From a virus: DNA of 64,000 bases. The position numbers and the translations under genes were made by a program. Below are positions 530-14,295 of this stretch, piece by piece; the stretch's first letter is position 1, and each line of letters begins with the position of its first letter. The stretch lies in IMG/VR virus record IMGVR_UViG_3300045125_000101, positions 7,823 to 71,822 of that record; one strand, given 5' to 3'. Under the pieces are notes generated by a model. The model was not told the DNA's origin. It saw nothing but the letters and a program-made list of their open reading frames with translations, and did no database searches.

Positions 530-535
530 TGAAAT

Positions 536-957: not shown

Positions 958-1317
958 CCGAAGGTAAGCGGGACCGTGCTCCGTGAACTTGTCGAGCACA
1001 TTCGGATCCTTCTTCACGTTGCCACGCACGCCATTGGCCACAGGAGCCTTCCACGTACCCTTGAGCAGGTCGCCGCTGGCAATGTCATAGAAGCAATAGA
1101 CCGAGTCAGCTTCGAGCTTATTGGTGAGGCGGCTGACCTGAAACGTCGCCAGCTTGGCATAACGCTTGCCGATGCTTTCCACCATCACGATGGGAGCCTC
1201 GGCGTGCGTGAAGTTCATACGGGTCCAGTAGTCGCTGATCTTCTTGTTGACGCCACGGATGAAATCCGTCAGCGGAATGTCGTTCTTCAGAGCTTGGATG
1301 GCGGTTTCTTTATTCAT
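955..1317 (-). CDS. hypothetical protein
   Basis: Intact ORF MNKETAIQ...PAYLR. Confidence 0.7.
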   Translation of the reverse strand: MNKETAIQALKNDIPLTDFIRGVNKKISDYWTRMNFTHAEAPIVMVESIGKRYAKLATFQVSRLTNKLEADSVYCFYDIASGDLLKGTWKAPVANGVRGNVKKDPNVLDKFTEHGPAYLR

Positions 1318-1507
1318 CGTCAATAAACCTTGTACAGATTTTGTGGGTCAATTTTCGCTGAGTGGTGCCCTGAACAGGATGCTGGTCACAGCTCGAGTTG
1401 TCTGTCCATCACCACACAGAAAAGACGGCACGCCGAAAAATAGTTCCGCCCGCGTGTTTGTTTTACCGTTCATATAGGTGATTTCCATAAAAATGTCAAG
1501 TACAGAG

Positions 1508-1890
1508 TTACCAGTCAAACATAACTGCCTTGCCATTATACCAGCCAATATTTCCAGTATGCAAGTCAGGGAAGATGCCATACTTAAGATACTTGTTGAG
1601 TTTGCGTCTAAGAACTTCCAAAGCAAACCTCAAGTTCTTCTTTCTACAAGTGGCTGAATAACATACTCCTTGCTGAAGAAAATATGTAGGAACGCTGAAA
1701 CTGCATTGGCGTGCGATGTTCAAGAATGAACGCAGGACGCTTGATGACAACGCCAAGTTTCTTGTTGTAGAAACCGTTGACCTTGCGGCTTTGCAGGCTA
1801 TGGGCTTCCACCCCTTGACCATGCTGCCCTTTCAGCAGCAGGTCAAGAACATCCTCGTAATACCAGCGGACACTGGCGTTCAGTTTTTCA
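1508..1890 (-). CDS. small kinase/phosphotransferase-fold protein (frameshifted)
   Basis: VVIKR (VAIK-like), DLHTGN catalytic loop and MFDW (DFG-like); pieces in ORFs 1644..1898 and 1508..1822. Confidence 0.5.
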
Positions 1891-1891
1891 T

Positions 1892-2197
1892 TTACCAATT
1901 GACCGTGGACGGAGCAGCCACTTCCAGAGTGGCCACAGGCGCATCCGCCACAGGCGTCTTGACCGTGGCATACACCAGTTCCTTGCGGCCTCGCCGACTC
2001 TTGGCAGGGTCACGCAGACCAGCCTGCACCACCTCGCCAGCCTCGATGGCCTTCTGAATTCGGCTGTAGATGGTGATGGGCTTGACCTTGTAGGACGTAG
2101 CCTTGCGCAGGTCACGCAAGGTGAAAGTGTCGGGGAAGGTCAGGTTGAAGCCATACTTGATGCGCTTGGCCTTGATGACGGTGCTGGTGTTGCTCAT
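1892..2197 (-). CDS. winged-helix-like DNA-binding protein
   Basis: FTLRDL...TIYSRIQKAIEAGEV...SRRGRKELVY, a wHTH-like pattern with a basic wing. Confidence 0.55.
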   Translation of the reverse strand: MSNTSTVIKAKRIKYGFNLTFPDTFTLRDLRKATSYKVKPITIYSRIQKAIEAGEVVQAGLRDPAKSRRGRKELVYATVKTPVADAPVATLEVAAPSTVNW

Positions 2198-2242
2198 ATG
2201 TTGTGTATGTTGGTTGAAGAAAATAAAAAGTCAAGTCCAGAC

Positions 2243-2434
2243 TTATCGGACCGACTGCTTGGCCTCAAAGGCAACCGCCGCCTCGTTGGCCTTGCGGATG
2301 ATTTCGTTGATGTACTTGGCGCGACCCTCGTAGTCATTCTTCTTGAAGTTCAAGAACGTGTGGTCATCGCCGAGGTTGCGAAGCTCAGAGGCGAGATAAC
2401 CAGCGAGGTAAGGATAGTTAGTGGTGTTGCTCAT
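2243..2434 (-). CDS. hypothetical protein
   Basis: ORF with own promoter and CACGATG start. Confidence 0.7.
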   Translation of the reverse strand: MSNTTNYPYLAGYLASELRNLGDDHTFLNFKKNDYEGRAKYINEIIRKANEAAVAFEAKQSVR

Positions 2435-2473
2435 CGTGCTGTTACTATGATTGATTTTTATAGAAAGTCAAGG

Positions 2474-2818
2474 TCAAACCGCCACCGCCGACTTGGCGGT
2501 GACGATGGCGTCCAGCTTGGCGGCGTCACTCATCTTGATGACCTGACCCGCGTACTTGGGCATCTTCTTGAACACGAAGCTCATCTGCTTGTCACTCAGG
2601 CGACCATACTTGAGTTGAGCCTGAGCCAACGAGGACAGGAACTGGGCATCCACGCCCGTGAAGCCGATGCCGTTGTCGTGGCTGGTGGTCTGGCTGACCT
2701 GCTCGTCCGCCGTCTGGTTCTCCTGATAGATGCGGACCAGCGCCTTCACCGCCCACACAGGATCGGTGGCGAGCTTGGTCTTGACGAAGCTGAGGGTGTC
2801 TTTCTTGGTGGCGTTCAT
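2474..2818 (-). CDS. hypothetical phage protein
   Basis: ORF with own promoter; start MNATKK. Confidence 0.7.
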   Translation of the reverse strand: MNATKKDTLSFVKTKLATDPVWAVKALVRIYQENQTADEQVSQTTSHDNGIGFTGVDAQFLSSLAQAQLKYGRLSDKQMSFVFKKMPKYAGQVIKMSDAAKLDAIVTAKSAVAV

Positions 2819-2862
2819 CGTGAGCATACTATGGCACACGATTTATAAAAAATCAAGAACTA

Positions 2863-3498
2863 TCAGCCATAGCTGTCTAACTTCTTGATAATCACTTCAT
2901 TGCGATTTTTTGAACCTTTCCAATCCTTTTCAGAACACTTGCTTGGAAAAGCACAGACATCATAAATTGAACAGCCTTTGCAAAGCTCTGATAAATAACG
3001 ATTTGGATAAATGCAGGTTGTCTTGCTTACTTCTGCTAGGTTGAATTCACCAGCGCCGCCGCCGAAATAATCGGGGTTGCCAGACCAAGGATACACTACC
3101 CGTGAAGGGTCAAGGCTGGTCTCGTCGGCTGCTGACCCTGACGCTGGCATCGCCGCTGATGCCCTTTCCTTTGGCTTACGCCCACGTTTCTTCTTGGGGG
3201 TATGGGTGGCCTTGCCTTTGACCTCAAGCCTCGGCAAATCGCCTCCATTGGCTTCTACCAGCGACCTTACGTCCTCTGCCGTGAAGCCGTTTTGTAGGTA
3301 CTTCTTGGCTTGTTGCGTAACATATTCTGCCACAAGCTTTTCTTCGCTGCCATATTTCTTTACTACGTCAGCAAACCTGGCCTTGTCTGCAAATGTCTCA
3401 TTACCAGTAAGGTTACAACGCCAATAGAAATAGTTTCCATTTGCGCTGGTTTCAATGCCAGACGGTAGTTTCTTGCGTGGTTGTGCTTTACGAGGCAT
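2863..3498 (-). CDS. hypothetical protein with Cys-rich C-terminus
   Basis: Intact 211-aa ORF; CxYP...CxGCxxxxxCxxxxxC. Confidence 0.75.
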   Translation of the reverse strand: MPRKAQPRKKLPSGIETSANGNYFYWRCNLTGNETFADKARFADVVKKYGSEEKLVAEYVTQQAKKYLQNGFTAEDVRSLVEANGGDLPRLEVKGKATHTPKKKRGRKPKERASAAMPASGSAADETSLDPSRVVYPWSGNPDYFGGGAGEFNLAEVSKTTCIYPNRYLSELCKGCSIYDVCAFPSKCSEKDWKGSKNRNEVIIKKLDSYG

Positions 3499-3535
3499 AA
3501 GCCAAATAAACCATACTATGACCTAAAGGTCAAGA

Positions 3536-4150
3536 TTAAACTTCAAACTCAGACCAATGCTTTTTTGACAAAGTATGACAAGCCCACTTACCGTGATAAT
3601 CATTTGGGCCAACATTTTCCATCATAACGGTTTCTGGCAAGAAACTAAATGGACGATTGCCTACTTTGCTGAAAAACTGTGCTTCGCGACCAAACTCACG
3701 CTTATTAAACTTTTCTACCTTTCCATAGCCTGGATAGCCAGAAATGCAATGATTTGTGCCGTGAAGTTCTGCAAACTGACCACCTAACGGAATAAACAAA
3801 ATACTATCTTGTTCAAACTCTTCACCTAAACGCTTCATTACTGAAAGCAAGTTTCCTTTATTTTCAACATCAGCAATGAAAAAGTATTTTCATCCACTTC
3901 TCTTGCTTCAGGAGTGCCAAAGTTTTCAATGTATGCTCCCTTGATTGCAGTTACGCTGTACCTACCTAAGCTATGAATCTTAGACAGCAACGATGCATTG
4001 CGTTGCATATTTTGGCGATAGGTGTATTTTTTCTCCCTTGCCACAGTCGGGGGCATACCTAAAAGCAGACATAGTGCCACAATCGTGCTTTTCCATGTAT
4101 TGCCAAAGCCTTGACAGTCCAGATTCATTTAAGATTTGAGTAAGCTTCAT
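3536..4150 (-). CDS. conserved large-phage hypothetical protein (frameshifted)
   Basis: MKLTQILNESGLSRL...SAFR...GAYIEN...V-E..F...LGEEFEQDSILF; three ORF fragments join. Confidence 0.65.
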
Positions 4151-4231
4151 ATGCAATAAATAGTTGATGGGTTGTGCTTTATTTGGCCCAATGATGTAGG
4201 TTTTGTCAAAATCGCACCTACGTGTCAAAAA

Positions 4232-4480
4232 TCAAGCCTCCCGCAGGATTTCGGAGGCGTAGGCGTAGAGGGTATTTTGCAGCACCGTGCGCTGCGTGGC
4301 GGTCCACTCGTTGATATGGCGAGTGGTCGTGGTGCTATGACCAGCGGTCTTGTAGACGCCCCACTTGTCGCCGATGGGCAGGTCAAACGAGACGGCAACA
4401 GGGGTCTCGTAGCTGAAGAGCACGGTGCCCTTGCGGGTCACAAGCTCGTGGCAGTTGCTGTTGATTTGGCGGAGTTTCAT
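4232..4480 (-). CDS. hypothetical protein
   Basis: MKLRQINSN...LFSYETPVA; own promoter. Confidence 0.7.
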   Translation of the reverse strand: MKLRQINSNCHELVTRKGTVLFSYETPVAVSFDLPIGDKWGVYKTAGHSTTTTRHINEWTATQRTVLQNTLYAYASEILREA

Positions 4481-5003
4481 CGTGCGTAATAGACTGACAG
4501 CTAAAATAAAAAAAGTCAAGGAAGAATTGGTACTTCGCGAAACAAGTGAAACTCACAGGTTCACCTTCAGAATCAGTCATTATGATCTTATGCCTTCACG
4601 CTCAACTTCAAGGTTTTGATCTCTAGGACTTGAAAGCCATACTCGTCACGATGTTCTTCCCAAGATACAGACATTACTTCATTGGTAGGTTCATTACCAC
4701 ACATGCTATGCTGATATGAGGCAAACATATCCATTATGCTGGATAAGTCTGACAACATCGGCGGAATTGATGAGATCAAGAGCCTCTTGGAGTTTGATTT
4801 TCATTAGTAGTATGTTGGACCATAATCAAGAAAATCAAGGTTTATTTGGCGAAAGTGATGCTAAACAAGCCAGAGCGAACAATCTTCCAGCCCTTGCGCT
4901 GATAGCTTTCAGCAAGCTTGATGCCAGCAATAGTGTCAGTACGAATAGTGATGTGTTTCATACGATGCTTAGACTACCTAAGAAATAAAATAAGTCAAGA
5001 AAA

Positions 5004-5081
5004 TTGTTTGCAATGGCGCGAGCTTTCACGCGCTATTATGGCACAGGGCCATCCTCTCCTTGTCTTTGAGTTCATTGCGAA
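5004..5081 (-). ncRNA. cloverleaf tRNA-like RNA with non-canonical loops
   Basis: Stems GCAATG/CATTGC, CTC/GAG, ATGGC/GCCAT and GCGCG/CGCGC in tRNA order and spacing. Confidence 0.55.
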
Positions 5082-5089
5082 AAAGAACT

Positions 5090-5145
5090 GTTGGTCAAGC
5101 GATGGCATTGAACCATCTTTAATAGACTATTCTATCTCAACCAAC
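5090..5145 (-). ncRNA. 56-nt mini tRNA-like RNA (closing stem, one hairpin, T-arm)
   Basis: GTTGGTTGAG/CTTGACCAAC, ATAGA/TCTAT, GATGG-TTCAATG-CCATC. Confidence 0.5.
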
Positions 5146-5186
5146 AAGAATGAGTATGACTTTTTTATCTAAAAGTCAAGAAAGTA

Positions 5187-5263
5187 TTTGCTCATCCGAT
5201 TCGAACGGATTTTTGTGCAATGCACTATGACCAATCGCCTTGGTACCTCAAGGTTTGAGCAAA
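5187..5263 (-). ncRNA. 77-nt tRNA-like RNA without a recognisable anticodon arm
   Basis: TTTGCTC/GAGCAAA acceptor stem, CCTTG/CAAGG hairpin, perfect T-arm ATCCG-TTCGAAT-CGGAT. Confidence 0.6.
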
Positions 5264-5267
5264 AAAT

Positions 5268-5347
5268 TGGAGCGATGTGAGCCGAACACGCGGCCCGCTT
5301 CTGACGGGAATGTCAGTATGCTTATCGTACATCTACATCAACACCGC
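5268..5347 (-). tRNA. atypical tRNA-Gly(TCC)-like
   Basis: GCGGTGT/ACATCGC, discriminator U, CCA; anticodon stem CTGAC/GTCAG with 6-nt loop ATTCCC; T-stem truncated. Confidence 0.55.
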
Positions 5348-5365
5348 ATAAAAAGAACAAAAATT

Positions 5366-5456
5366 GGTTCATCAAAGCGAGGGAGCCGATCCCTAATCAC
5401 GCTGACCTATGGTTAATTACTCCTTCGGTCACGAGTTCCGCACTAACTTTGATGAA
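5366..5456 (-). ncRNA. 91-nt RNA with a 10-bp terminal stem ending in CCA
   Basis: TTCATCAAAG/CTTTGATGAA+CCA; internal TGACC/GGTCA and AGGGA/TCCCT stems. Confidence 0.6.
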
Positions 5457-5494
5457 AAAGAGAATGACTATTTTTAATTAAAAGTCAAGAAAAT

Positions 5495-5568
5495 TGGTAC
5501 CACCACGGGGAATCGAACCCCGATTTTCGCCGTGAAAGGGCGCTTTCTAACCGTTAGAAGATGGCGGC
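5495..5568 (-). tRNA. tRNA-Glu(TTC)
   Basis: Full cloverleaf, loop CTTTCAC, TTCGATT T-loop, encoded CCA. Confidence 0.95.
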
Positions 5569-5579
5569 ATATCTGAAAA

Positions 5580-5654
5580 TGGAGCCGAGTATCGGACTTG
5601 AACCGATAACCTACTGTTTACAAAACAGTTGCACCGCCATTGTGCTAACTCGGC
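5580..5654 (-). tRNA. tRNA-Thr(TGT)
   Basis: Full cloverleaf, loop TTTGTAA, TTCAAGT T-loop, CCA. Confidence 0.95.
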
Positions 5655-5706
5655 ATCTTAAAAGAACAAGAAGTATGACTTAACTTAAAGAAGAGTCAAG
5701 AAAAAT

Positions 5707-5783
5707 TGGTGGGTCCGGTGGGGTACGATCCCACAGTATTTCGATTAAAAGTCGAAGGCTTTATCCGTTTAAGCTACAGACCC
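5707..5783 (-). tRNA. tRNA-Lys(TTT)
   Basis: Full cloverleaf, loop CTTTTAA, CCA; atypical T-loop ATCGTAC. Confidence 0.92.
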
Positions 5784-5826
5784 ATTAAAAAGAACAAGAA
5801 TAACTATGGACTAAAATTAAGAAATG

Positions 5827-6371
5827 TCAATACTTTTTTGAGTTTTGTGAACCTTTTGTAGTTTCCACCTTTTGGAGATAGACCGCATTTAATCAGAGCT
5901 TGTCTAATTGTTGGCTCGGATTTAATCGCATCAATAGCAGCGGCATCGTCCACTTTATTGCACGATTTTTATTTCTTCCTCTCCAAGTAGGAGTAATACT
6001 ATGGCAGTTCGGGCAAAGAGCAACTAAATTCTGTCGTGAATTATCTTGATGATTTCCGTTGATATGGTCAATCTCAAAAGTCAATAAAGTTCCAAACCAT
6101 TCACTAACTCCACATTTACCACATTTATTTTTTGGTCAAATATTATTTTTTCTCTACGAGCATCACCACCTAATTTTTCAAATGGAGTTTCAGTTAAATA
6201 CTTGACTCTGTTTTCTTCTTTATTTTGGTATCGTCTCGCCGTTCCCTCTGCTTGTTTTCTTCGATATTCATTCCAAGCAGTTGGGTCACTTTTAAGATTT
6301 TCAAGCCACTTTCTGGCGGCTTCTCTTTGCTTTTGTTTTGTTTCTTCTGTTTGTGGTCTTCCTGTTTTCAT
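5827..6371 (-). mobile_element. free-standing HNH homing endonuclease inside the tRNA cluster (frameshifted)
   Basis: EIDHINGNHQDNSRQNLVALCPNCHS HNH motif; NUMOD3-like N-terminus (QTEETKQKQRE). Confidence 0.85.
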
Positions 6372-6436
6372 ACTTGAACCTAGTTTTAAGTTTCAAGTAT
6401 AAATATAAACAATTTCAACAAAACATCAATATTTTT

Positions 6437-6622
6437 TCAAAACTGAATGCATTCTTGCCACTTGAAGTTTGGCATACCATCGCTGCCATAAACATACACA
6501 GCGTGACCATTAAGCAATGCTTCATTACGCATAGCTCTCTTGCCAAGCTCATATCCAATCACGACACAAAAGAACATATTTGCCAATATAACAAGAACGG
6601 TCAATAACTTGTCTGTTTTCAT
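6437..6622 (-). CDS. small membrane protein
   Basis: MKTDKLLTVLVILANMFFCVVIG hydrophobic segment. Confidence 0.6.
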   Translation of the reverse strand: MKTDKLLTVLVILANMFFCVVIGYELGKRAMRNEALLNGHAVYVYGSDGMPNFKWQECIQF

Positions 6623-6627
6623 AAAAA

Positions 6628-6703
6628 TGGTGGGCCGGAAGGGATTCGAACCCCTAACCAAAGGATTATGAGTCCTCTGCTCTGACCGTTGAGCTACCAG
6701 CCC
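6628..6703 (-). tRNA. tRNA-Ile2/Met(CAT)
   Basis: Full cloverleaf GGGCTGG...ACCA, loop CTCATAA; body resembles lysidine-type Ile2 tRNAs. Confidence 0.92.
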
Positions 6704-6861
6704 AATAAATTATTCGCCGTAGATGTATGACTTATAAACTTTATCGTCAAGTTCAAAAGTCATAATATCTGCGCCATTGAAGCCTTCTTCAATGTCAAGA
6801 AACTTAACCTTCTTGACGCTGATCTTGATGCCGTCAACAAGAACAAATCCAGTACGTTTCT

Positions 6862-7053
6862 TCACTTTGCTGGCCTCCACATAAAAATCTCATTCTTGTC
6901 AAATGACTTGCCAGCAAGCCAGTTTTCAAAACTGACTACACTATCCTCATCAATGCCCTTGAGATACTCTTTGAGAGTGTTCTCAGATAGAATCTGCTCA
7001 GAGTTGAGTTCAAGATTCTTGGGCACAATCGTGATGGTCTGATACGTCTTCAT
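6862..7053 (-). CDS. hypothetical protein
   Basis: MKTYQTIT...; own promoter. Confidence 0.6.
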   Translation of the reverse strand: MKTYQTITIVPKNLELNSEQILSENTLKEYLKGIDEDSVVSFENWLAGKSFDKNEIFMWRPAK

Positions 7054-7085
7054 TGTGCAATCAGTATGATGATGGAATAAAAAAG

Positions 7086-7283
7086 TCAAATAATATCGTC
7101 AATATCTGAGCCACGGCACTTTAGTTCAAACATAGCATCGTCAGCTTGATTGAAAATGCTGTTGATGCGATTAACAACATCGCTGGGAGAAATATATCTG
7201 TCAATGTTGTCCAACTCAACAAGATACTCTTGAATGCGAGCCTTGATGTCCAAAGCTTGCTTGATTTCTTCGTAGGTCTTCAT
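7086..7283 (-). CDS. hypothetical protein
   Basis: MKTYEEIKQ...; abuts the upstream gene. Confidence 0.6.
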   Translation of the reverse strand: MKTYEEIKQALDIKARIQEYLVELDNIDRYISPSDVVNRINSIFNQADDAMFELKCRGSDIDDII

Positions 7284-7284
7284 T

Positions 7285-7482
7285 TTAGTTGACGCAAACG
7301 GCGTTGACCTTGAAGTCATTACCGTCGTTTTCAAATGTCTTGCCATCGAAATAGCCATAGCAAGGCTCATACTTGACTTTGGAAAATCTATTGCCCTCAT
7401 CATCAGCGGCATAAATCATTTCCGCGTTGGGATACTTCTTCTGGATTTCCTGCAACTGGGCGATATAGTTACTGAGTTTCAT
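7285..7482 (-). CDS. hypothetical protein
   Basis: MKLSNYIAQLQ...YAADDEGN; own promoter. Confidence 0.7.
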   Translation of the reverse strand: MKLSNYIAQLQEIQKKYPNAEMIYAADDEGNRFSKVKYEPCYGYFDGKTFENDGNDFKVNAVCVN

Positions 7483-7546
7483 GGTGTATGAGTATGCTTA
7501 GATTCTATAGAAAGTCAAGCTGAAAGTGGCTTTTTTTCAATAAAAG

Positions 7547-7625
7547 TGGCGCTCTTGGCGGGACTCGAACCCACATTAATCCAGTTATGCGCGTTCTGTT
7601 TAGAAGACAGAGCCAATACAAGAGC
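7547..7625 (-). tRNA. D-armless tRNA-Arg(TCT) with long variable region
   Basis: GCTCTTG/CAAGAGC+G+CCA; TCTGT-CTTCTAA-ACAGA; GTGGG-TTCGAGT-CCCGC; only 7 nt between acceptor and anticodon stems. Confidence 0.75.
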
Positions 7626-7671
7626 GTGATGTTGAAAATAAGTATGCTGGATACTTAGATAAAGTCAAGCA

Positions 7672-8139
7672 TTACCAGCTTGACTGATAAGTAAAATCAA
7701 ACTTCTCAAACTTGGGCGACAGCACCTTATCAAGCACATTGATGGTATGCTCCAAGTCCTTTTTGTACCAACTGTCGATTTCTGTGCTGCCGAAGAAGAA
7801 CCCAGAAGTGGGCGTCAGAATGTCTGATGCACCGTCAGCGTCGCCAGCCTCCAGCTTGACCAAAGCAGCACGGCACTCGTTTCGCAGTTCAGCCAGCTTA
7901 TCACGGCTGACGTAATAGCGGGCGCAGTTGTCCTCGCCGCTCTGGACGTTCTGGACAAACCAGTTGTGGATGGCGTTGGCCTTGCGCCAGTAGCCCACCG
8001 TGACGTTGACCGTCATTGAACGTTCAGCGTCACTTTCGTCGAGGTTAAGAAGGCCAAGGATATTGCCAAAGTCCTTGTCCTTGTCGTGGTCGTAGCCCGA
8101 GACGAAACGCTCGGCGTTGAGAAACATGTCAAGTCCCAT
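7672..8139 (-). CDS. conserved phage hypothetical protein
   Basis: MGLDM...VGYWRKANAIHNWFVQNVQ pattern; intact ORF. Confidence 0.85.
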   Translation of the reverse strand: MGLDMFLNAERFVSGYDHDKDKDFGNILGLLNLDESDAERSMTVNVTVGYWRKANAIHNWFVQNVQSGEDNCARYYVSRDKLAELRNECRAALVKLEAGDADGASDILTPTSGFFFGSTEIDSWYKKDLEHTINVLDKVLSPKFEKFDFTYQSSW

Positions 8140-8558
8140 AATGCTTAAGAGAGTAGCAGATGATTAAATAAAGTCAAGGTTTTTTCACCCTTTTTTCTGT
8201 CACCAACTTTGGCGCAGGCATTGGCTGCGTTGGAGCAGGAGATGGCAGAACAGGATGATTTACCTTGAGCAAGTTGCCGTTGTAAATCTGGAGTTTCATA
8301 GGAAGAAAGAAGAACCAACACATAAATATTCTATCTTCCTACAAAGTCAATATTTTTGCAAAAAAATCTTAAAGATTTTTGATTTCTAAATCTTCTTGAT
8401 GTTGTCGTAATCGATCTCAAACGAATCTTCAAGATAAGAAGAGTCGCTTGGCGAGATCAGCATCGTGAGTGAGTTTAATGGCTTCTGCTTCGCTGTCTGC
8501 TTGTATCAGCACATAGCCATACTCACGCCAGGTGACAGGAACCTTATAAGTATTCATA

Positions 8559-8879
8559 TCAAGCAGAGATGTTGTCAATAGCCGTCTTGGCAAAAGAAAG
8601 CTTGGACTCATAATCGCCAGTAAACTTCTTGCCCTTATAAACATACAATGCAAAATGAGTAGCGTGCTTGAGCGGCAGATTGCAGGCATACTTGTGCTTG
8701 CAATACCTGCTTGTCTTGACATTCTTATAAAACTGCTTGCGATTACGGTTGCGACCAAACGGACGCACAATCAGTCCAGTTCCATTAAGCAGACGGCGAG
8801 CAAAACTCAGAAAGTTATTGCCCTGCTCGTCGTTGGAGATAAAGCCGACAAAGTTGTCGGAGTATGTGGTGTTATTCAT
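8559..8879 (-). CDS. hypothetical protein
   Basis: Intact ORF with own promoter. Confidence 0.65.
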   Translation of the reverse strand: MNNTTYSDNFVGFISNDEQGNNFLSFARRLLNGTGLIVRPFGRNRNRKQFYKNVKTSRYCKHKYACNLPLKHATHFALYVYKGKKFTGDYESKLSFAKTAIDNISA

Positions 8880-8921
8880 TATGATAGTAGTATGCTGAAG
8901 ATTTTATAGAAAGTCAAGCTC

Positions 8922-9305
8922 TCAGTTGAAAACGTCATCCATCGCATTGATTTGGATGTTGCCATCAGGGCTCGTCCAACTCAACTGCTCGCACTTGCGC
9001 TTGGCCTTGCCAACGCTGACCACATCGTCATAGATATAGTCCATAAAGCTACGTAGGATGCGACGCAGCGTGGCGTGGTTGGTGTTGGCGGGGATTTGCG
9101 TGCAATAGCTGCCGTCTTCAACCTCAACCCAGTCGTGCCCGTCGTGACGATACACATCAAACCGCAGCAGGTTCACGTCGTCAGGGTTTTCGGGGTCATA
9201 GTCCCCGTCAAAACCCTCGTGGAGGTTGACCCAGTCGATCCGCACATTGCCTCGGATGATCGTGGGCAGCTTATGTTCATTGATTGAGAAACTATCGTTC
9301 TTCAT
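8922..9305 (-). CDS. hypothetical protein
   Basis: Intact ORF, own promoter, CACGATG start. Confidence 0.75.
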   Translation of the reverse strand: MKNDSFSINEHKLPTIIRGNVRIDWVNLHEGFDGDYDPENPDDVNLLRFDVYRHDGHDWVEVEDGSYCTQIPANTNHATLRRILRSFMDYIYDDVVSVGKAKRKCEQLSWTSPDGNIQINAMDDVFN

Positions 9306-9343
9306 CGTGAATATACTCTACCAGGTTTCTATAAAAAGTCAAG

Positions 9344-9378
9344 AAAAAACCCCTTGGGGGGTTGTCCAAGGGGTTGAT
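9344..9378 (-). terminator. Rho-independent terminator after the tRNA
   Basis: AACCCCTTGG/CCAAGGGGTT hairpin followed by a T-run on the minus strand. Confidence 0.75.
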
Positions 9379-9452
9379 TGGGAGCAGGGAACCGAATTGA
9401 ACGATTGTCTCTTCATTATGAGCGAAGCGTGCTACCTTTACACCACCCTGCC
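9379..9452 (-). tRNA. tRNA with CAT anticodon (Met-like, atypical body)
   Basis: GGCAGGG/CCCTGCT, loop CTCATAA, TTCAATT T-loop, discriminator C, CCA. Confidence 0.85.
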
Positions 9453-9737
9453 GTAAAATTGTTTATTCCACTATCTATGATTTTCCATTCAACCACAGCC
9501 ATCGATTTTTGTCAAGCGGAATCTATTTTTTGTCGCTTGTTTTCTTACCCACCATTACTTTACCTGCTTCTGTTTTTATCTTTGTACCGTCGCTTGTATT
9601 ATTCTGGCGGCGCGAAAGTGCGCACCGATGGTTCATCAAAGGGTTGCTTTTCTATCCTATGTTATTTAAAGAACACTAACCACTATACCGATATATATTC
9701 AATAGTCAATAGAAAACTTCAAGATTTTTTACTTTTT

Positions 9738-10097
9738 TTAAGCGACCTTGAGTTCTACCTCGACGCTCTTCTTGCCCACAGACAGCATCCAGCGTTCTGG
9801 ATGCTTTGCCAGCGGCGTGAAATAATCCTTGGGCGTGGGAATGAACCCGCAGTCCTCTTGAACGTGCTGCTCGGCGATCATCTTGACGGGGATGCTCTGG
9901 CCCGCCGAGTTGGTCACGGCGTGCCCGAACTTCTCTACCGCCCATTGAATGCCTGCGCTGTGATGGCGCAAGGCACGATAGGTCCAATCGCCCGTATATG
10001 CCTTGGTTTCGTCGAACCAGTCGTGGATGGCGACATAATCCTGCCACTTGCCGCCCCACTTCTTGACCGTAGATTCAGCGTGCTTGAGAGGAGTCAT
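9738..10097 (-). CDS. DUF6915-like protein
   Basis: PLKHAES..KKWGG..DY.AIHDWFDETKA...RALRHH..GI...EQHV.EDCG. Confidence 0.7.
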   Translation of the reverse strand: MTPLKHAESTVKKWGGKWQDYVAIHDWFDETKAYTGDWTYRALRHHSAGIQWAVEKFGHAVTNSAGQSIPVKMIAEQHVQEDCGFIPTPKDYFTPLAKHPERWMLSVGKKSVEVELKVA

Positions 10098-10109
10098 ACA
10101 AGTAATGTA

Positions 10110-10442
10110 TCAGGACTTTTCGTTTTCGTCAATAACCAAATCATCGCTGTCATAGTCGCCATCAACGCGAGAAGTATACCATTCTTGCGACGACGCCTTC
10201 TTGTTCACCAGGTCGTAGGTGATTTCGTCGCCATATTCGCTGCCATCACCCGCGCCGCTATATTCATACACTTCCCACGCCCAACTTTCAACCTCGCCCG
10301 CAATGGCAGAATTATAATCGGGGTAAGTGCTGATATACAGACAGCCCTCGTCATTGCCGCCGCTGAAGTTCAGCATAATCTGCTTGATGCCAGCAGCAAC
10401 AGCCTTGTCGTAGATTTCCTTCTTGAGTGGTTGGATTTCCAT
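10110..10442 (-). CDS. DUF6878-like acidic protein
   Basis: GI..I...FSGGNDEG pattern; adjacent to the DUF6915-like gene. Confidence 0.5.
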   Translation of the reverse strand: MEIQPLKKEIYDKAVAAGIKQIMLNFSGGNDEGCLYISTYPDYNSAIAGEVESWAWEVYEYSGAGDGSEYGDEITYDLVNKKASSQEWYTSRVDGDYDSDDLVIDENEKS

Positions 10443-10500
10443 AGTTTTTTAAGTTAGAATAGTAGAGTAGCAGTTTTTATAAAAAAGTCAAGGTCTTTCT

Positions 10501-10740
10501 TCAATACCTGACCTTGGCAGTTTCAACGTTGATATTCTTCCAGCCGTATGAATCAACCTTGATAAGAATGTATTCAAGAGTATTATCATACCCAATAGAG
10601 TCTGTAATATACTCATATGCTCTTACATAATCTTTTTCAAGGTCTGTGATTGTCTTACTCTCATCATCGTGAGTATAAAAGAAGTTCATATCAAAACGCG
10701 AATCAGATTCGTCTTTGATGTTCAGATGATAAATCTTCAT
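10501..10740 (-). CDS. hypothetical protein
   Basis: Intact ORF overlapping the upstream stop. Confidence 0.6.
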   Translation of the reverse strand: MKIYHLNIKDESDSRFDMNFFYTHDDESKTITDLEKDYVRAYEYITDSIGYDNTLEYILIKVDSYGWKNINVETAKVRY

Positions 10741-11006
10741 ACCAGTTCCTTCATAAACGGATGATATTTTATCTTATGCCGATAATATGTAGTGCTGGCA
10801 ACTTTACCTTGTGCAGTATGATCAGCAGTCCAATATTCGTCCTTGTATTTGATAAGTGCGTGCGTTGCCTTGCCAAGTCGATTTAGAGATTCAAGAATAG
10901 TGTTCTTGATATTCTCAGCATCAGTTGAAGCAAACTCATACTTTTCTGTATGAATAGGCGTTTGAGCACTATCAATAATAAGGATTTTAACGGTGTTTTG
11001 TACCAT
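10737..11006 (-). CDS. hypothetical protein
   Basis: Intact ORF. Confidence 0.6.
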   Translation of the reverse strand: MVQNTVKILIIDSAQTPIHTEKYEFASTDAENIKNTILESLNRLGKATHALIKYKDEYWTADHTAQGKVASTTYYRHKIKYHPFMKELV

Positions 11007-11013
11007 ATTTTAA

Positions 11014-11202
11014 TCAGTTCTTCTTGAATAGGCGGAGACCTTGATCTCCATATCCCTTGAACGAGCCCTTGTTGTCGTATGTGCGATTGTCATTTACACG
11101 GCTTACAACATTGCCTTTGGCGTCGCTATAAACCTTGGTATTGCCCTGCTGTTGAGTAAACCCAACAACCTGTCCCTTTTCGTTTTTGATATAGTCTGGC
11201 AT
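11014..11202 (-). CDS. hypothetical protein with beta-hairpin repeats
   Basis: NEKGQVVG / DAKGNVVS / DNKGSFKG repeats. Confidence 0.65.
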   Translation of the reverse strand: MPDYIKNEKGQVVGFTQQQGNTKVYSDAKGNVVSRVNDNRTYDNKGSFKGYGDQGLRLFKKN

Positions 11203-11206
11203 AAAA

Positions 11207-11464
11207 TCAAATCACATCACAATACTTCCAAACGTCGTCGGGAATCTCGTCCCGCACTTCCGTATCAAGTTCGTAAATCTTCTTCATTGCGCCGATGCGG
11301 TCGCCAGCGTGTATGAGATTAGCAATCTTGAGAAGGTCAAGATAGTCACTTGTCTGAACCTTCATCATAGCCACATCGCCAAGCCACAGCTTGTGGCAGC
11401 GATTGAACCGATTGATGGCAACTTCGTAAACCTTGGCAGAGGCAGTTTCGTCAGTTAGTTTCAT
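11207..11464 (-). CDS. hypothetical protein
   Basis: Own promoter, CACGATG start. Confidence 0.7.
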   Translation of the reverse strand: MKLTDETASAKVYEVAINRFNRCHKLWLGDVAMMKVQTSDYLDLLKIANLIHAGDRIGAMKKIYELDTEVRDEIPDDVWKYCDVI

Positions 11465-11506
11465 CGTGGAATACTCTAAACGAGGTTAATAAAAAGTCCA
11501 GAAAAA

Positions 11507-11547
11507 GTGAGCGTGAACTGGTATGCGCTCCCCACCGTGTGAAATCA
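11507..11547 (-). repeat. post-stop repeat element, copy 3 (degenerate)
   Basis: TTTCACACGGTGGGGAGCGCATACCAGTTCACGCTCAC directly after a TGA stop. Confidence 0.8.
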
Positions 11548-11760
11548 AACCGCCGTCGCCAGACGCACGGGACGACCAACAGCGTCGTCGAAGACATAGT
11601 TGACAGGCTCGTCGGCTTGCGCCGCACGGCTGTCTGTCGGCACCCACCAGCGAGACAGCAACTCGCGCCCAGCCTTTTCTGCCTCGGTCTGAGTGGCGAA
11701 ACGCAGAGCATTCGTCGCCCACTTGCCATCGACGCAAACTTCAGTTTTCCAAGATTTCAT
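11545..11760 (-). CDS. hypothetical protein
   Basis: MKSWKTEVCVDGKWATNALRFAT...; own promoter. Confidence 0.7.
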   Translation of the reverse strand: MKSWKTEVCVDGKWATNALRFATQTEAEKAGRELLSRWWVPTDSRAAQADEPVNYVFDDAVGRPVRLATAV

Positions 11761-11790
11761 AATGGTATGTTGGCAGTTTTTATAGAAAAG

Positions 11791-12072
11791 TCAAGTCAAG
11801 AATGAATGCCCACCAGTGCCGAGCGACTCAGGAAACTCGTCGTCGTCATAGCTCTCGACGGTCGTAGGATACGACCCATTCTTCTTCTGATACGCTCTGA
11901 AGAAGGTGGACAAGTCGCAGTCCTCTTCAAGGAAGAGGCGAGTGCCGCGCTTGTTCTTGTAGGAATAGCCGCTGATGTCGTCAACAGTCAGACCAACATC
12001 CTTGAGGTCAGACGGAGTAACCTCCAGCCAACCGTGACCTGGATCATTGTGCTTAATAAACGTAGCGTTCAT
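11791..12072 (-). CDS. hypothetical phage protein
   Basis: DPGHGWL...SY......LFLEEDCD. Confidence 0.75.
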   Translation of the reverse strand: MNATFIKHNDPGHGWLEVTPSDLKDVGLTVDDISGYSYKNKRGTRLFLEEDCDLSTFFRAYQKKNGSYPTTVESYDDDEFPESLGTGGHSFLT

Positions 12073-12274
12073 TGAGTAGAAGTGTGTTGAAAAATTAAAG
12101 AAAGTCGAGATTATTCGGAGGCCAAAATGCTGATTATCTCTGTCCCCCGCTCAAACAAGTTTCGTTCAACAAGGTCAGGGTCAGCGCCATTTAGTTCCGA
12201 TGGAGTGAATATGACAATGGCATAGCCAGCGTCACGCAGTTCATCGATGCTGCATTCGTACATTGTTTTCATAA

Positions 12275-12520
12275 TTAGATTTTCTTCTCCCAACCAAATC
12301 CAGCACACACATAAGTTTCGCTGTCAATCGTCACTTCATCATCCACGCTCATGGAGCGCAGACGCTTGCCAGAAATCCATTCAGAGCCATCCACATGATT
12401 GCATTGACGAAACACAACCTCCAGCGCGTCCAGCACATCAGTACCAGAAGGAATGAGTTCCGAAGGAAACTCAAACGTGTCAGTCGAACGAAACGCCTTG
12501 TAAGCAACGTTGATCTTCAT
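12275..12520 (-). CDS. YodL-like hypothetical protein
   Basis: N......RSMSVDD.V......Y.CAGFGW pattern. Confidence 0.5.
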   Translation of the reverse strand: MKINVAYKAFRSTDTFEFPSELIPSGTDVLDALEVVFRQCNHVDGSEWISGKRLRSMSVDDEVTIDSETYVCAGFGWEKKI

Positions 12521-12612
12521 CGTGCAGATATCCTGAATTGAAAATTAAAGAAAGTCGAGAAGAAAAGCGGTGCAGGCCGGATACCACTCACAACCTGCAC
12601 CGCCCCAGTGAT

Positions 12613-14004
12613 TTACACCAAAGTCAGGCTTTCGGCAAGGTCACCATCGTTCAGCGTGTCGAGGCAGTTCAGCTTGTGCTGCACACGATGGCAGATGTTT
12701 TCCTCAATGCACTTGGCAGCATACACGATGCGTTGATAGCTCTTGGTCTTGCCTTCCAGTCGCCATACACGACCCAGCGCCTGGCGCATATTGTAAGCAG
12801 ACCAGTTCGGGCTGATGATGCTGGCACGAGGATACTTGCCGTTGAGGTCGTGCAAGCTGACGCCAGTTCCACCAGCAGCAATGTTTACAACCAGCACTCG
12901 CTTGTTGTCAGCTTGAAATGCATTGATGTCATCAACACGCTGCTTGTCAGTTTGACCGCCAACAATAAACCCAACATTGTTCTTGAACTTGCTGATTTTG
13001 TTCAGTCGCTTTACAATGGCATCCACCGTATCAGCAAAGTTGACAAACAGCACAATGCTCTTGCCTTCGTCGTAAAGATCTTCTGCCATCTCTACAAAAA
13101 GAGGAACCTTGCACAACTCAGCCTTGCGACGAGCTTCCATCATAACAGCAAAGATATGCTCAGAATAGTTTTCTGAACGTTCTTCAAGCTTGGCCAGTTC
13201 AGATTCCATATCGTCATACACGGCCTGGATCTTGCTTTCATTGGCTCCAAGATCATATGCCTCGGCGACAATATGAGATTCCGGAAACTGCTTGCCAAAG
13301 TCCTGTACCTTCATACGGCTGGCGCACTTGGTAGTATCAAACAGATACTCGTTCAAACGCAGCATAGCTTCGCGAGCTTCAGCAGTAGCAAGGTTGAAAG
13401 TCATAGCACCATAACGTGCCATAAGTTCAGCACCGTGCACACGGCAAAAATCGCGAAAGTTGTAGAGTGCGTGCAGATTGGTAAGAAAACCAAACGCCTT
13501 CATTTCAAGGGGCGAGGTCGCAACCGTAGCAGAAGAAACCAGCACCTTGTAGCCTTGAACCTTGAGTGCAACCATCATCCAGCTATTGCTAGTGTCGGTA
13601 CCCTTGCACTTGTGTCCTTCGTCTACCACAATCAGCGTGTTGGGTTCGAAGTTGAAATATGGCATTTCACGCTTGGCATTTTCATTGAACGGCTGAACAG
13701 GATCCTGAAGCTTCTTCCACTTCATGTATTTGGTATTGCCACGGCAAAGCTTCTCATAGTTGATGAGAGTAACCGCCTTGAGCTTGAAGCTGGCAAGGAT
13801 CTTTTGCCATTGATGAATAACACTCTTGGGACAGATAACAGCGAAGGGACGGTTCAGTTCGCGAATAACCGCAGCAGCGGCATATGTCTTGCCTGTGCCC
13901 GTCTCACTCATATCCACGGCGTGACCGTTGAGATAAAGTGAATCTACGAGACGCTGTACGTGCTTGAATTGAGGCTCAAGCAAACCTGTGGTATCGATTT
14001 GCAT
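12613..14004 (-). CDS. superfamily 2 DEXH helicase
   Basis: Walker A ETGTGKT, DEGH, SAT, GGTGVSL, QALGRVWR; intact 463 aa. Confidence 0.93.
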   Translation of the reverse strand: MQIDTTGLLEPQFKHVQRLVDSLYLNGHAVDMSETGTGKTYAAAAVIRELNRPFAVICPKSVIHQWQKILASFKLKAVTLINYEKLCRGNTKYMKWKKLQDPVQPFNENAKREMPYFNFEPNTLIVVDEGHKCKGTDTSNSWMMVALKVQGYKVLVSSATVATSPLEMKAFGFLTNLHALYNFRDFCRVHGAELMARYGAMTFNLATAEAREAMLRLNEYLFDTTKCASRMKVQDFGKQFPESHIVAEAYDLGANESKIQAVYDDMESELAKLEERSENYSEHIFAVMMEARRKAELCKVPLFVEMAEDLYDEGKSIVLFVNFADTVDAIVKRLNKISKFKNNVGFIVGGQTDKQRVDDINAFQADNKRVLVVNIAAGGTGVSLHDLNGKYPRASIISPNWSAYNMRQALGRVWRLEGKTKSYQRIVYAAKCIEENICHRVQHKLNCLDTLNDGDLAESLTLV

Positions 14005-14040
14005 ATTTGTACTATGCTACACTTTTTATCTAAAGTAAAG

Positions 14041-14295
14041 TCAATAAATCCAGATTTGCACAAAGTATTGATCATTATGGCTATATATCATATATTCGCC
14101 ATCATAACCATCCTCGTCATAAACAGGGCTGAAAAACAGAATCTTGCCAGTTTTGGCACTTTGAATAACAACGCCAGCCCAGCCTTTGACAGCAGATGTA
14201 TTGCCCACTTTGATGAGTTTGCTGTTTAGAGTAGAACCTTTGTTGCCCTTCCATTCAAACGAAGTAGAGCAGTAAACTGGAATATCTATCATCAT
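14041..14295 (-). CDS. hypothetical protein
   Basis: Intact ORF with own promoter. Confidence 0.6.
   Translation of the reverse strand: MMIDIPVYCSTSFEWKGNKGSTLNSKLIKVGNTSAVKGWAGVVIQSAKTGKILFFSPVYDEDGYDGEYMIYSHNDQYFVQIWIY

What the first reader, a model, noticed from the sequence alone, without database searches (positions are those of the whole stretch)
7547..7625. tRNA-Arg(UCU) lacking the D-arm, with a D-loop-like sequence moved into the variable region
Acceptor, G73, CCA, anticodon arm and T-arm are canonical. Only UAUUGGC (7 nt) lies where the D-arm belongs, while 20 nt (ACGCGCAUAACUGGAUUAAU) lie between the anticodon and T arms. That insert contains AACUGGAUUA, closely resembling the Arg D-loop with its G18-G19. 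It looks like an internally permuted cloverleaf in which the GG could still dock on the T-loop. D-armless tRNAs are known mainly from mitochondria. The rearrangement is too large to be an indel artefact.
Basis: partly seen in the sequence, partly recalled or inferred. Interest (0 to 1): 0.78.

Follow-up and report, generated by a model that had tools for sequence, protein, structure and literature searches.

The report
Phage arginine tRNA with permuted core
This is a real, strongly conserved phage gene for an arginine tRNA (anticodon UCU) whose D-arm pieces come in a different order from the textbook cloverleaf; it belongs to a family of hundreds of phage tRNAs that gene finders mostly miss and that I could not find described in any paper.

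Summary
On the minus strand, 7625 to 7547, lies a 79-nt tRNA-like gene. It has a 7-bp acceptor stem, G73, an encoded CCA, a canonical UCU anticodon arm and a canonical T arm. Only 7 nt sit where the D arm belongs, and 20 nt precede the T arm.

It is not an artefact or a decaying gene. Two independent metagenome contigs carry it with 0 changes, while one flank differs by about 9%. Pattern scans of IMG/VR gave more than 200 distinct relatives with the same layout, nearly all with Arg anticodons (UCU, ACG, UCG, CCU).

The D arm is rewired rather than absent. Nucleotides 11-12 pair with the two bases just before a UAA-N(1-2)-GGA "D-loop" (98-100% Watson-Crick, all four pair types). This short helix encloses the anticodon arm, and the loop carrying G18-G19-A20 follows it. 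The D/anticodon domain is in effect circularly permuted.

The most likely function is a host-charged tRNA-Arg that reads AGA, the phage's commonest Arg codon. Expression and charging are not shown.

This scan has reported the same family before on many other genomes. I found no paper that describes it.

The parts
7547..7625 (-). whole tRNA-Arg(UCU) gene with permuted core, 76 nt plus encoded CCA
   Evidence: Rfam tRNA 36.4 bits; family model R1 85.8 bits, the only hit in the 138-kb record
7619..7625 (-). acceptor stem, 5' strand (nt 1-7), pairs with 7551-7557
   Evidence: 7/7 pairs in the window; 100% paired with 2-5 pair types per position in alignment A1
7617..7618 (-). U8 A9, invariant in the family
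   Evidence: UA follows the acceptor stem in 204 of 214 parsed relatives although most search patterns did not fix it; invariant in A1
7612..7615 (-). 5' strand of the split D-stem-like helix X (nt 11-14, UGGC)
   Evidence: U11-A38 and G12-C37. The equivalent pairs are 98% Watson-Crick in 180 relatives with four pair types and 100% in A1 and A2; RNAalifold predicts them unprompted. G13-C35 and C14-G34 across a bulged G36 are inferred from the window's subclass only.
7595..7611 (-). anticodon arm (5 bp, 7-nt loop CUUCUAA; anticodon UCU at 7602-7604)
   Evidence: stem 96% paired with covariation at all five pairs
7588..7592 (-). 3' strand of helix X (nt 34-38, GCGCA, G36 probably bulged)
   Evidence: as for the 5' strand; the subclass pattern G-Y-G-C-A recurs in about 30 relatives
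7580..7587 (-). relocated D-loop-like segment UAACUGGA (A14/A15-, G18/G19- and A20-like positions)
   Evidence: in a scan that did not constrain this region, 97 of 97 D-hairpin-less tRNA-Arg(UCU) genes carry UAA-N(1-2)-GGA or a one-base variant here
7575..7579 (-). connector UUAAU; its last two bases, AU, are near-invariant
   Evidence: AU immediately before the T stem in 174-175 of 175 and 93 of 97; no pattern fixed these bases
7558..7574 (-). T arm (5 bp, loop UUCGAGU)
   Evidence: 100% paired in A1
7547..7557 (-). acceptor stem 3' strand (7551-7557), discriminator G73 (7550), encoded CCA (7547-7549)
   Evidence: CCA is encoded in 147 of 214 relatives; discriminator G 95, A 71, U 47, C 1
7641..7668 (-). 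sigma-70-like promoter TTGACT-16 nt-CATACT; its -10 element ends 15 nt before tRNA position 1
   Evidence: a second copy of the same promoter lies at 7491-7518 for the next gene; the motif is enriched in the first 15 kb of the window

Best explanation
The gene encodes a working phage tRNA-Arg(UCU) with a non-cloverleaf core. It is transcribed from its own early sigma-70-type promoter and trimmed to a 76-nt body plus CCA. The acceptor, anticodon and T arms are canonical. In place of a D hairpin, nt 11-12 (probably 11-14) pair with nt 37-38 (probably 34-38, with G36 bulged). This short helix stacks on and encloses the anticodon arm and takes the place of the D stem with its strands swapped. The D-loop-like UAACUGGA leaves the 3' strand of that helix. 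It presents the G18-G19 equivalents to the T loop and the A20 equivalent to ArgRS, then runs through a short connector ending in AU into the T stem. In canonical numbering the chain order is 8-9, 22-25, 26, anticodon arm, linker, 10-13, 14-21, 48, which is a circular permutation of the D/anticodon domain. The phage record has no ArgRS of its own, so host ArgRS would charge the tRNA with arginine. It would read AGA, the phage's most used Arg codon. Shown here: the sequence anatomy, the conservation, the base-pair covariation, the restriction to Arg anticodons and the genomic context. Inferred: transcription, processing, the tertiary contacts, charging and decoding.
For: (1) Purifying selection. 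Independent metagenome contigs carry 7547-7625 with 0 differences, while one of them shows 24 differences in the next 269 nt. L006 differs at two positions, one of which turns a U-G pair in the T stem into U-A.
(2) Family size. These gave 214 parsed unique members.
(3) Structure. In the gapless alignment A1, 95% of cells are paired. The covariation score is 0.843 against 0.228 when shuffled (0 of 500 shuffles as high) and at most 0.163 when partners are slid. The independent set A2 gives 98.2% paired and 0.926.
(4) Helix X passed a prospective test. The base before UAAY was fixed in turn to G, A, C and T by the scans, and nt 11 followed it: C-G 76, G-C 44, U-A 33, A-U 24, 98% Watson-Crick.
(5) Arg identity. 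The anticodons are UCU 95, ACG 72, UCG 23 and CCU 10 of 214. The A20 equivalent is always present, C35 and U/G36 are present, and the discriminator is G, A or U. This matches the bacterial Arg identity set A/G/U73, A20, C35, U/G36 (PMC9976931).
(6) Complementarity. Where a canonical tRNA-Arg lies in the same locus, it has a different anticodon in 78 cases and the same one in 7. In this phage the only other Arg tRNA is ACG.
(7) Codon demand. AGA is the top Arg codon at 17.1 per 1000, and 19.7 in the AT-rich part.
(8) Context. The gene has its own promoter, and relatives sit in tRNA clusters with a median of 7 tRNAs per locus.
Against: There is no RNA evidence: none of the public runs that hold the locus is on record as RNA, and only contigs could be laid on it. 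Charging and decoding are untested. For this one sequence the nearest-neighbour energy model prefers another fold (-24.9 kcal/mol) over the family fold (-21.0), and gives the T stem and helix X almost no probability. That fold is not conserved, however: its own helices are 40% and 52% paired across the family. In the window the third pair of helix X is G opposite G, so only two pairs are firmly supported and the 2+2 bp helix with a bulged G is inference. A two-pair helix is weak on its own and would need tertiary contacts. An earlier check of the same claim on other DNA reports that 'part of it fell', without saying which part.
Confidence: 0.78

Rival explanations
1. A tRNA-shaped RNA that is not used for decoding. 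It could be a decoy or sponge for a host nuclease or enzyme that targets tRNA-Arg, or a regulatory or primer RNA that only mimics tRNA-Arg.
For: The rewiring removes the normal D hairpin that many tRNA-binding proteins contact. Phage tRNAs are known to counter tRNA-targeting defences (established knowledge, not tested here). The record encodes an RNA ligase family protein (PF09414) beside its main tRNA island, a hint of tRNA damage and repair. No expression or charging data exist.
Against: All features needed for charging and ribosome use are kept across hundreds of members. These are a 7-bp acceptor stem, a G/A/U discriminator, CCA, the A20 equivalent, a canonical 7-nt anticodon loop with U33 and a canonical T loop. 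The anticodon moves among four Arg anticodons and complements the canonical Arg tRNAs of the same cluster (78 different, 7 the same). That is what a decoder would do, not a decoy. In this phage it is the only tRNA that matches the commonest Arg codon.
Confidence: 0.12
2. A canonical tRNA in disguise. Either it is a class II tRNA with a long variable arm (the Alishewanella phage homologue is annotated tRNA-Ser), or the transcript is cut and rejoined into a normal cloverleaf, as happens with permuted or intron-bearing tRNA genes.
For: GenBank annotates the homologue in Alishewanella phage Slicko01 as tRNA-Ser. The total length is normal. The phage encodes an RNA ligase family protein.
Against: RNAalifold predicts no variable-arm hairpin. 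The only hairpin this sequence can form there competes with the T stem and is 52% paired across the family. Class II tRNAs keep a D arm and this RNA has none. UCU reads Arg, not Ser, and the genome reads well in code 11. In permuted tRNA genes the 3' half lies upstream of the 5' half with bulge-helix-bulge sites (PMC3978253). Here the acceptor halves are in normal order, and restoring a cloverleaf would need an excision plus a re-insertion.
Confidence: 0.04
3. A decaying tRNA pseudogene or a product of misassembly.
For: ARAGORN rejects it, the Rfam score is low, and the source is a metagenome-assembled record.
Against: Independent assemblies give zero substitutions in the gene against about 9% in the flank. 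More than 200 diverged relatives keep the same layout with compensatory changes in all helices. The family model scores it 85.8 bits. It has its own promoter.
Confidence: 0.02

Closest known systems
Canonical bacterial and phage tRNA-Arg(UCU) (E. coli argU type; Rfam RF00005)
   Same: 7-bp acceptor stem, G73, CCA, the anticodon loop CUUCUAA, the T arm with UUCGAGU, U8, the G18-G19 and A20 equivalents, and an overall length of 76 nt. The presumed job is also the same: charging by ArgRS and reading of AGA.
   Different: There is no D hairpin between nt 9 and the anticodon arm. The D-stem equivalent is formed by strands that lie on either side of the anticodon arm, and the D-loop equivalent lies 3' of the anticodon arm. 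There is no ordinary 4-5-nt variable loop. Standard finders fail on it: ARAGORN called 9 of 197 family members.
D-armless mitochondrial tRNAs, such as mt-tRNA-Ser(AGY/UCU) of mammals and nematodes (reviewed in PMC7609411, PMC4013460)
   Same: No D hairpin at the usual place, and a short connector between the acceptor and anticodon stems.
   Different: The mitochondrial tRNAs are shortened, lack the G18-G19/T-loop contact, often have reduced T arms and rely on adapted mitochondrial factors (PMC7609411). This RNA is full length, keeps a canonical T loop and a conserved GG-A motif, and would have to work with ordinary bacterial ArgRS, EF-Tu and ribosomes.
Circularly permuted tRNA genes of Cyanidioschyzon and some archaea (PMC3978253, PMC3218864)
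   Same: The order of the tRNA segments in the gene differs from the cloverleaf order.
   Different: In those genes the whole gene is permuted, with the 3' half before the 5' half. It is restored to a canonical mature tRNA by bulge-helix-bulge splicing and circularisation. Here only the inner D/anticodon domain is permuted, the ends are normal, no such sites or enzymes are expected in a phage of bacteria, and the mature RNA is presumably itself non-canonical.
Homologues in cultured phages: Alishewanella phages vB_AspM_Slicko01 and Slickus01, and Felixounaviruses (Escherichia phages heid, bumzen, warpig, tootiki; Salmonella phage Meda)
   Same: They have the same rewired layout and score 73 and 57 bits with the family model. 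The Alishewanella copy shares the window's subclass signature (UAUUGGC ... GCA-UAAYUGGA).
   Different: Identity to the window is only about 78%. The gene is annotated tRNA-Ser in Slicko01. In the Felixounaviruses it is unannotated and overlapped by an HNH endonuclease CDS call. The window's phage itself has no close cultured relative.

Membership tests
Canonical cloverleaf tRNA (Rfam RF00005) | 7-bp acceptor stem, discriminator base and a 3' CCA (encoded or added) | tested here: met
   100% paired in A1
Canonical cloverleaf tRNA (Rfam RF00005) | Anticodon arm of 5 bp with a 7-nt loop and U33; T arm of 5 bp with a UUCRANU loop | tested here: met
Canonical cloverleaf tRNA (Rfam RF00005) | D-arm hairpin (3-4 bp stem, 7-11-nt loop) between nt 9 and nt 26 | tested here: not met
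   Only 5 nt lie between U8-A9 and the anticodon stem; Rfam aligns the gene by deleting the D arm
Canonical cloverleaf tRNA (Rfam RF00005) | Variable region of 4-5 nt, or a class II variable-arm hairpin | tested here: not met
   The region is 20 nt; no conserved hairpin is predicted, and the candidate hairpin is 52% paired across the family
Rewired (permuted-core) phage tRNA-Arg family, as defined here | Helix of at least 2 Watson-Crick pairs between nt 11-12 and the two bases just 5' of the D-loop-like motif, enclosing the anticodon arm | tested here: met
   U11-A38 and G12-C37 in the window; 98-100% paired with four pair types in the family
Rewired (permuted-core) phage tRNA-Arg family, as defined here | UAA-N(1-2)-GGA motif between the anticodon and T arms; U8-A9 after the acceptor stem; AU just before the T stem | tested here: met
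   The window has UAACUGGA, UA and AU; family frequencies are
Rewired (permuted-core) phage tRNA-Arg family, as defined here | Arg anticodon, and a high score with the family covariance model | tested here: met
   UCU; R1 scores 85.8 bits against at most 26 bits for canonical tRNAs
Rewired (permuted-core) phage tRNA-Arg family, as defined here | Expressed, arginylated and used in translation | not testable with these tools
   No run that holds the locus is on record as RNA; bench work is needed
D-armless mitochondrial tRNA | D arm replaced by a short connector with loss of the G18-G19/T-loop contact; reduced size; organellar translation system | tested here: not met
   The GG-A motif is conserved in 97 of 97, the T loop is canonical and the length is 76 nt; the gene lies in a phage genome with 28 tRNA-model matches
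Class II tRNA-Ser (the GenBank label of the Slicko01 homologue) | Ser anticodon, long variable-arm hairpin, D arm present | tested here: not met
   The anticodon is UCU (Arg in code 11), there is no variable-arm hairpin and no D arm
Circularly permuted tRNA gene | 3' half encoded upstream of the 5' half, with bulge-helix-bulge processing sites | tested here: not met
   The acceptor 5' and 3' strands are in normal order at the two ends of the gene; the definition is from PMC3978253

The most novel reading that the evidence does not exclude
A large, phage-borne lineage of arginine tRNAs works on ordinary bacterial ribosomes with a circularly permuted D/anticodon domain. That would make it a natural non-cloverleaf tRNA outside organelles. 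The rewiring would be kept because it lets the phage's Arg decoder escape host factors that recognise the normal D arm or elbow of tRNA-Arg (tRNA-targeting defence nucleases or modification enzymes), while ArgRS still reads A20 and the anticodon.
Probability: 0.2. Interest if true: 0.92.

Novelty: new variant of a known kind. Interest (0 to 1): 0.8.

Why it matters
The cloverleaf is regarded as universal for tRNAs used by bacterial ribosomes. The known exceptions are organellar, or they change arm lengths rather than chain order. A conserved and widespread tRNA whose core segments are permuted would have several consequences. First, the L-shape can be built from a different topology that bacterial ArgRS, RNase P, EF-Tu and the ribosome accept. 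Second, it is a natural test of which tRNA features each of these partners really reads. Third, tRNA gene finders systematically under-count phage tRNAs: ARAGORN called 9 of 197 members, and GenBank labels range from none to 'tRNA-Ser'. Fourth, it would provide an orthogonal-looking scaffold for tRNA engineering. Fifth, it raises the question of why phages maintain it, with evasion of tRNA-targeting defence as an obvious and testable idea. Carriers that infect E. coli K-12 exist (Felixounaviruses), so all of this can be tested directly.

Tried and rejected
- ARAGORN on the window does not call the gene.
- blastn of a 361-nt stretch against cultured phages found nothing. Only the 76-nt gene alone found distant homologues.
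- Alternative genetic codes: stop-to-stop coverage is already 0.89 under code 11, so there is no reason to invoke recoding.
- The minimum-free-energy fold of the window's RNA (hairpin 35-39/50-54 and helix 12-16/60-64, which break the T arm) is rejected at family level: 52% and 40% paired.
- A second helix between nt 9-10 and the connector after GGA shows no covariation in the 7-nt class to which the window belongs. It is clear only in the separate 8-nt class.
- The third pair of helix X (13:36) is not a conserved Watson-Crick pair: 42% overall, and G opposite G in the window.
- Pfam and PHROGs on the neighbouring small ORFs gave nothing informative, and there is no HNH endonuclease next to this copy.
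- No ArgRS (PF00750) and no CCA-adding enzyme (PF01743) were found in the record, which is about 64% complete.
- RNA evidence: none of the runs that hold the locus is on record as RNA, and the one read-laying run could use only assembled contigs.
- Bacterial genomes: of the first 120 matches to the motif pattern, only 8 were rewired tRNAs. Six of those 8 lie inside dense, phage-like tRNA arrays (13-25 tRNAs per 8 kb; the other two loci hold 2 and 0). The rest were Ser, Leu or Met tRNAs or chance matches.
- Literature: five full-text searches and two reviews turned up no description of this architecture.
- I could not learn which part of the earlier scan claim 'fell'.

Full report
**What is in the sequence.** The feature lies on the minus strand. 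Read from 7625 down to 7547, it is a 79-nt tRNA-like gene made of these parts:

- acceptor strand GCUCUUG
- UAUUGGC (7 nt)
- an anticodon arm, UCUGU / CUUCUAA / ACAGA, with anticodon UCU
- 20 nt that include UAACUGGA
- a T arm, GUGGG / UUCGAGU / CCCGC
- the complementary acceptor strand, then G73 and an encoded CCA

Rfam's tRNA model reaches 36.4 bits (gathering score 29), but only by deleting the D arm and inserting 17 nt. ARAGORN finds five ordinary tRNAs in the window but not this one.

**The setting.** The window is part of a 138-kb IMG/VR phage record, estimated about 64% complete, with 28 matches to the tRNA model. All the tRNAs lie on the same strand. The only other arginine tRNA has anticodon ACG. 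The phage has no close cultured relative: its helicase is at most 33% identical to any cultured phage's. Its DNA turns up in freshwater and lake metagenomes.

A sigma-70-like promoter, TTGACT-16 nt-CATACT, ends 15 nt before tRNA position 1. An identical one follows the gene and serves the next ORF. The motif cTTGACTTT occurs 31 times against 6.3 expected, mostly on the minus strand in the first 15 kb, so this looks like an early region driven by the host polymerase.

**Not an artefact and not decaying.** Logan contigs from independent lake metagenomes were laid on 7300-7900. One 508-nt contig covers 7540-7899 with 24 differences, all at or beyond 7631. Another covers 7541-7673 with 3 differences, again all outside the gene. 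The 79 nt are therefore identical in diverged relatives whose flank differs by about 9%. A 72-kb IMG/VR contig (L006) has the same gene with two substitutions, one of which turns a U-G pair in the T stem into U-A.

**A large family.**
- A first scan fixed only the anticodon loop, the 3' anticodon stem and the T loop, and required a long spacer. It found diverged copies with quite different acceptor stems but the same layout.
- My parser extracted 214 distinct genes with the layout. Their anticodons are UCU 95, ACG 72, UCG 23 and CCU 10, plus a handful of others such as GAU. The discriminator is G 95, A 71, U 47, C 1. CCA is encoded in 147.
- A further scan did not constrain the D-loop-like region at all (G7-U8-A9-U10, nine free bases, CUUCUAA, then the T loop). 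It gave 97 distinct genes with all three stems intact. Ninety-five carry UAA-N(1-2)-GGA and the other two a one-base variant of it. Ninety-three have AU immediately before the T stem.

The relocated "D-loop" is therefore under selection and is not a by-product of my search patterns.

**The D arm is rewired, not missing.** In the family, the two bases just before UAA pair with nt 11 and 12. The four scans fixed the last of these bases in turn, so this was a prospective test. Nucleotide 11 followed it in 98% of 180 genes (C-G 76, G-C 44, U-A 33, A-U 24). The next pair is also 98% Watson-Crick, with four pair types.

| Set | Cells paired | Covariation score | Controls |
|---|---|---|---|
| A1: gapless, 44 sequences | 95% | 0.843 | 0.228 shuffled (0 of 500 as high); at most 0.163 with partners slid |
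| A2: 68 distinct sequences from the motif-free scan, aligned by the model | 98.2% | 0.926 | helix X 100% paired |

RNAalifold predicts 11:38 and 12:37 without being told. The third position (13:36) is Watson-Crick in only 42% of genes; C opposite A and G opposite G are common.

The window has U11-A38, G12-C37 and G13 opposite G36. Its subclass (UA-N-UGGC ... G-Y-G-C-A-UAAY, about 30 members) allows G13-Y35 and C14-G34 if G36 bulges out. This fits the C/U variation at position 35, but it is inference only.

**How the chain maps onto a normal tRNA (inference from the anatomy).** Helix X is continuous with the anticodon stem. Its 5' strand runs straight into the anticodon stem, as residues 22-25 and 26 do in a normal tRNA. 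Its 3' strand is followed by A-A-Y-N-G-G-A, as residues 10-13 are followed by A14, R15, G18, G19 and N20. The last base before the T stem is U, where Y48 sits, and it could form the Levitt pair with the A15 equivalent.

In canonical numbering the order is 8-9, 22-25, 26, anticodon arm, a 2-5-nt linker, 10-13, 14-21, 48, T arm. This is a circular permutation of the D/anticodon domain. The old ends (44-47 and 10) are joined, and new ends are opened between 21 and 22. In the known L-shape, residue 43/44 stacks next to residue 10, and residues 8 and 21 lie next to 22. Both new connections are therefore sterically plausible. I have no tool to model this in three dimensions.

**Why I think it decodes.**
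- Bacterial arginine identity rests on A20, C35, U/G36 and A/G/U73 (PMC9976931). All of these are kept in the family, and the family is confined to Arg anticodons while switching freely among four of them.
- The genes sit in tRNA clusters, with a median of 7 ARAGORN tRNAs per locus of at most 15 kb.
- When a canonical tRNA-Arg is present in the same locus, it has a different anticodon in 78 cases and the same one in 7.
- In this phage the rewired gene is the only match for AGA. AGA is the commonest Arg codon at 17.1 per 1000, rising to 19.7 in the AT-rich bulk of the genome (my gene calling was crude).
- The record has no ArgRS or CCA-adding enzyme. Host enzymes would have to accept the RNA.

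**What speaks against, and what is not shown.** There are no RNA data. For this one sequence the energy model prefers a different fold, -24.9 against -21.0 kcal/mol. The helices peculiar to that fold are only 40% and 52% paired across the family. Energy models also ignore tertiary contacts and modifications. Only two pairs of helix X are firmly supported in the window. Why phages keep this design is unknown. Evasion of host factors that target tRNA-Arg is an attractive guess with no direct support here. The record does encode an RNA ligase family protein next to its main tRNA island.

**Comparison with what is known.**
- The RNA works like a tRNA-Arg but fails two defining features of the cloverleaf: the D hairpin and the ordinary variable region.
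- It is not like the D-armless mitochondrial tRNAs, which are shortened and have lost the D-loop/T-loop contact (PMC7609411).
- It is not a class II tRNA, because it has no variable-arm hairpin.
- It is not a permuted tRNA gene of the algal or archaeal kind, where whole halves are swapped and spliced back (PMC3978253).
- Homologues exist in cultured phages. Alishewanella phages Slicko01 and Slickus01 carry the window's subclass, annotated there as tRNA-Ser. Felix O1-like coliphages carry an unannotated copy that an HNH endonuclease CDS call partly overlaps.
- In bacterial assemblies, only 8 of the first 120 pattern matches were rewired tRNAs. Six of the 8 lie inside dense, phage-like tRNA arrays.

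**Novelty.** Five full-text searches and two reviews gave no description of this architecture. The library lacks most subscription journals, so this is not proof. The notes of this scan show that other agents reached the same reading on many other genomes, with 79 notes matching my query. One note says that a check of the same claim on other DNA found that "part of it fell", without saying which part. I therefore re-derived every claim made here from my own calls. I claim nothing about pseudoknots, about exclusivity to phages, or about priority beyond "not found in the searchable literature".

**Verdict.** The best explanation is a functional tRNA-Arg(UCU) with a permuted core that reads AGA, at about 0.78. 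It is a new variant of a known kind and of high interest.

Noticed in passing
window 1-16000 versus 16001-64000: There are two composition regimes: GC 0.42-0.49 in the first 16 kb and 0.34-0.39 after that. GC3 is 0.52 against 0.34, and AGA usage is 9.5 against 19.7 per 1000. The promoter-like motif cTTGACTTT (31 matches, 6.3 expected) is concentrated on the minus strand of the first 15 kb, as expected for an early region read by the host polymerase.
   Followed up: partly
G000 (outside the window): C1:104256-104356, 103196-103280, 114857-114930, 118001-118071, 118724-118794: The phage's main tRNA island holds further odd tRNA-model matches. They include a 101-nt match, an 85-nt 'tRNA-Met', and several that Infernal finds but ARAGORN does not. 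None matches the rewired-Arg model R1.
   Followed up: no
G000:C1:122252-122761 (outside the window): An RNA ligase family gene (PF09414, 98 bits) lies just beyond the main tRNA island. It may be a tRNA-repair function.
   Followed up: no
L012, L014, L016, L054, L058, L079, L082, L093, L094, L099, L117 and others (IMG/VR loci): A sister class has 8 nt instead of 7 before the anticodon stem (UA-R-Y-CGAG type). It shows an extra covarying 3-bp helix between nt 9-11 and the three bases right after UGGA (AAC/GUU, AGC/GCU, AGU/ACU, AAA/UUU, AAU/AUU). There the D-loop-like segment is a bulge in one continuous helix, followed by a GAAAAU connector.
   Followed up: partly
L659:1178-1539, L617:8183-8420, L634, L636: Some phage contigs carry two to four rewired tRNA genes side by side, presumably different Arg isoacceptors.
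   Followed up: no
L003:6598-6639 region: A different oddity: a tRNA-Arg(UCU)-like gene with an ordinary D arm plus a long, hairpin-forming variable arm (GCCAGAAAUGGC). This is a class II-style arginine tRNA.
   Followed up: no
L597:2996-3074 (Alishewanella phage vB_AspM_Slicko01, OQ508956.1 17417-17495): The GenBank feature 'tRNA-Ser' is a rewired tRNA with anticodon UCU and all the Arg-type features, so the label is probably wrong.
   Followed up: partly
L598:1487-1565 (Escherichia phage heid, MN850577.1): The rewired tRNA is unannotated. The annotated HNH endonuclease CDS starts inside it (locus 1532), and an in-frame ATG right after the tRNA (about 1583) looks like the true start.
   Followed up: no
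L524 (Bradyrhizobium sp. C9), L483, L506, L519, L558, L574: Bacterial assemblies that hold a rewired tRNA-Arg carry it inside arrays of 13-25 tRNA genes within 8 kb. This is typical of phage-like or mobile tRNA arrays. ARAGORN also reports unusually long Arg calls there (80-81 nt) that may be further members.
   Followed up: partly
L031 (IMG/VR locus): One gene with the full rewired layout carries anticodon GAU (Ile) instead of an Arg anticodon.
   Followed up: no
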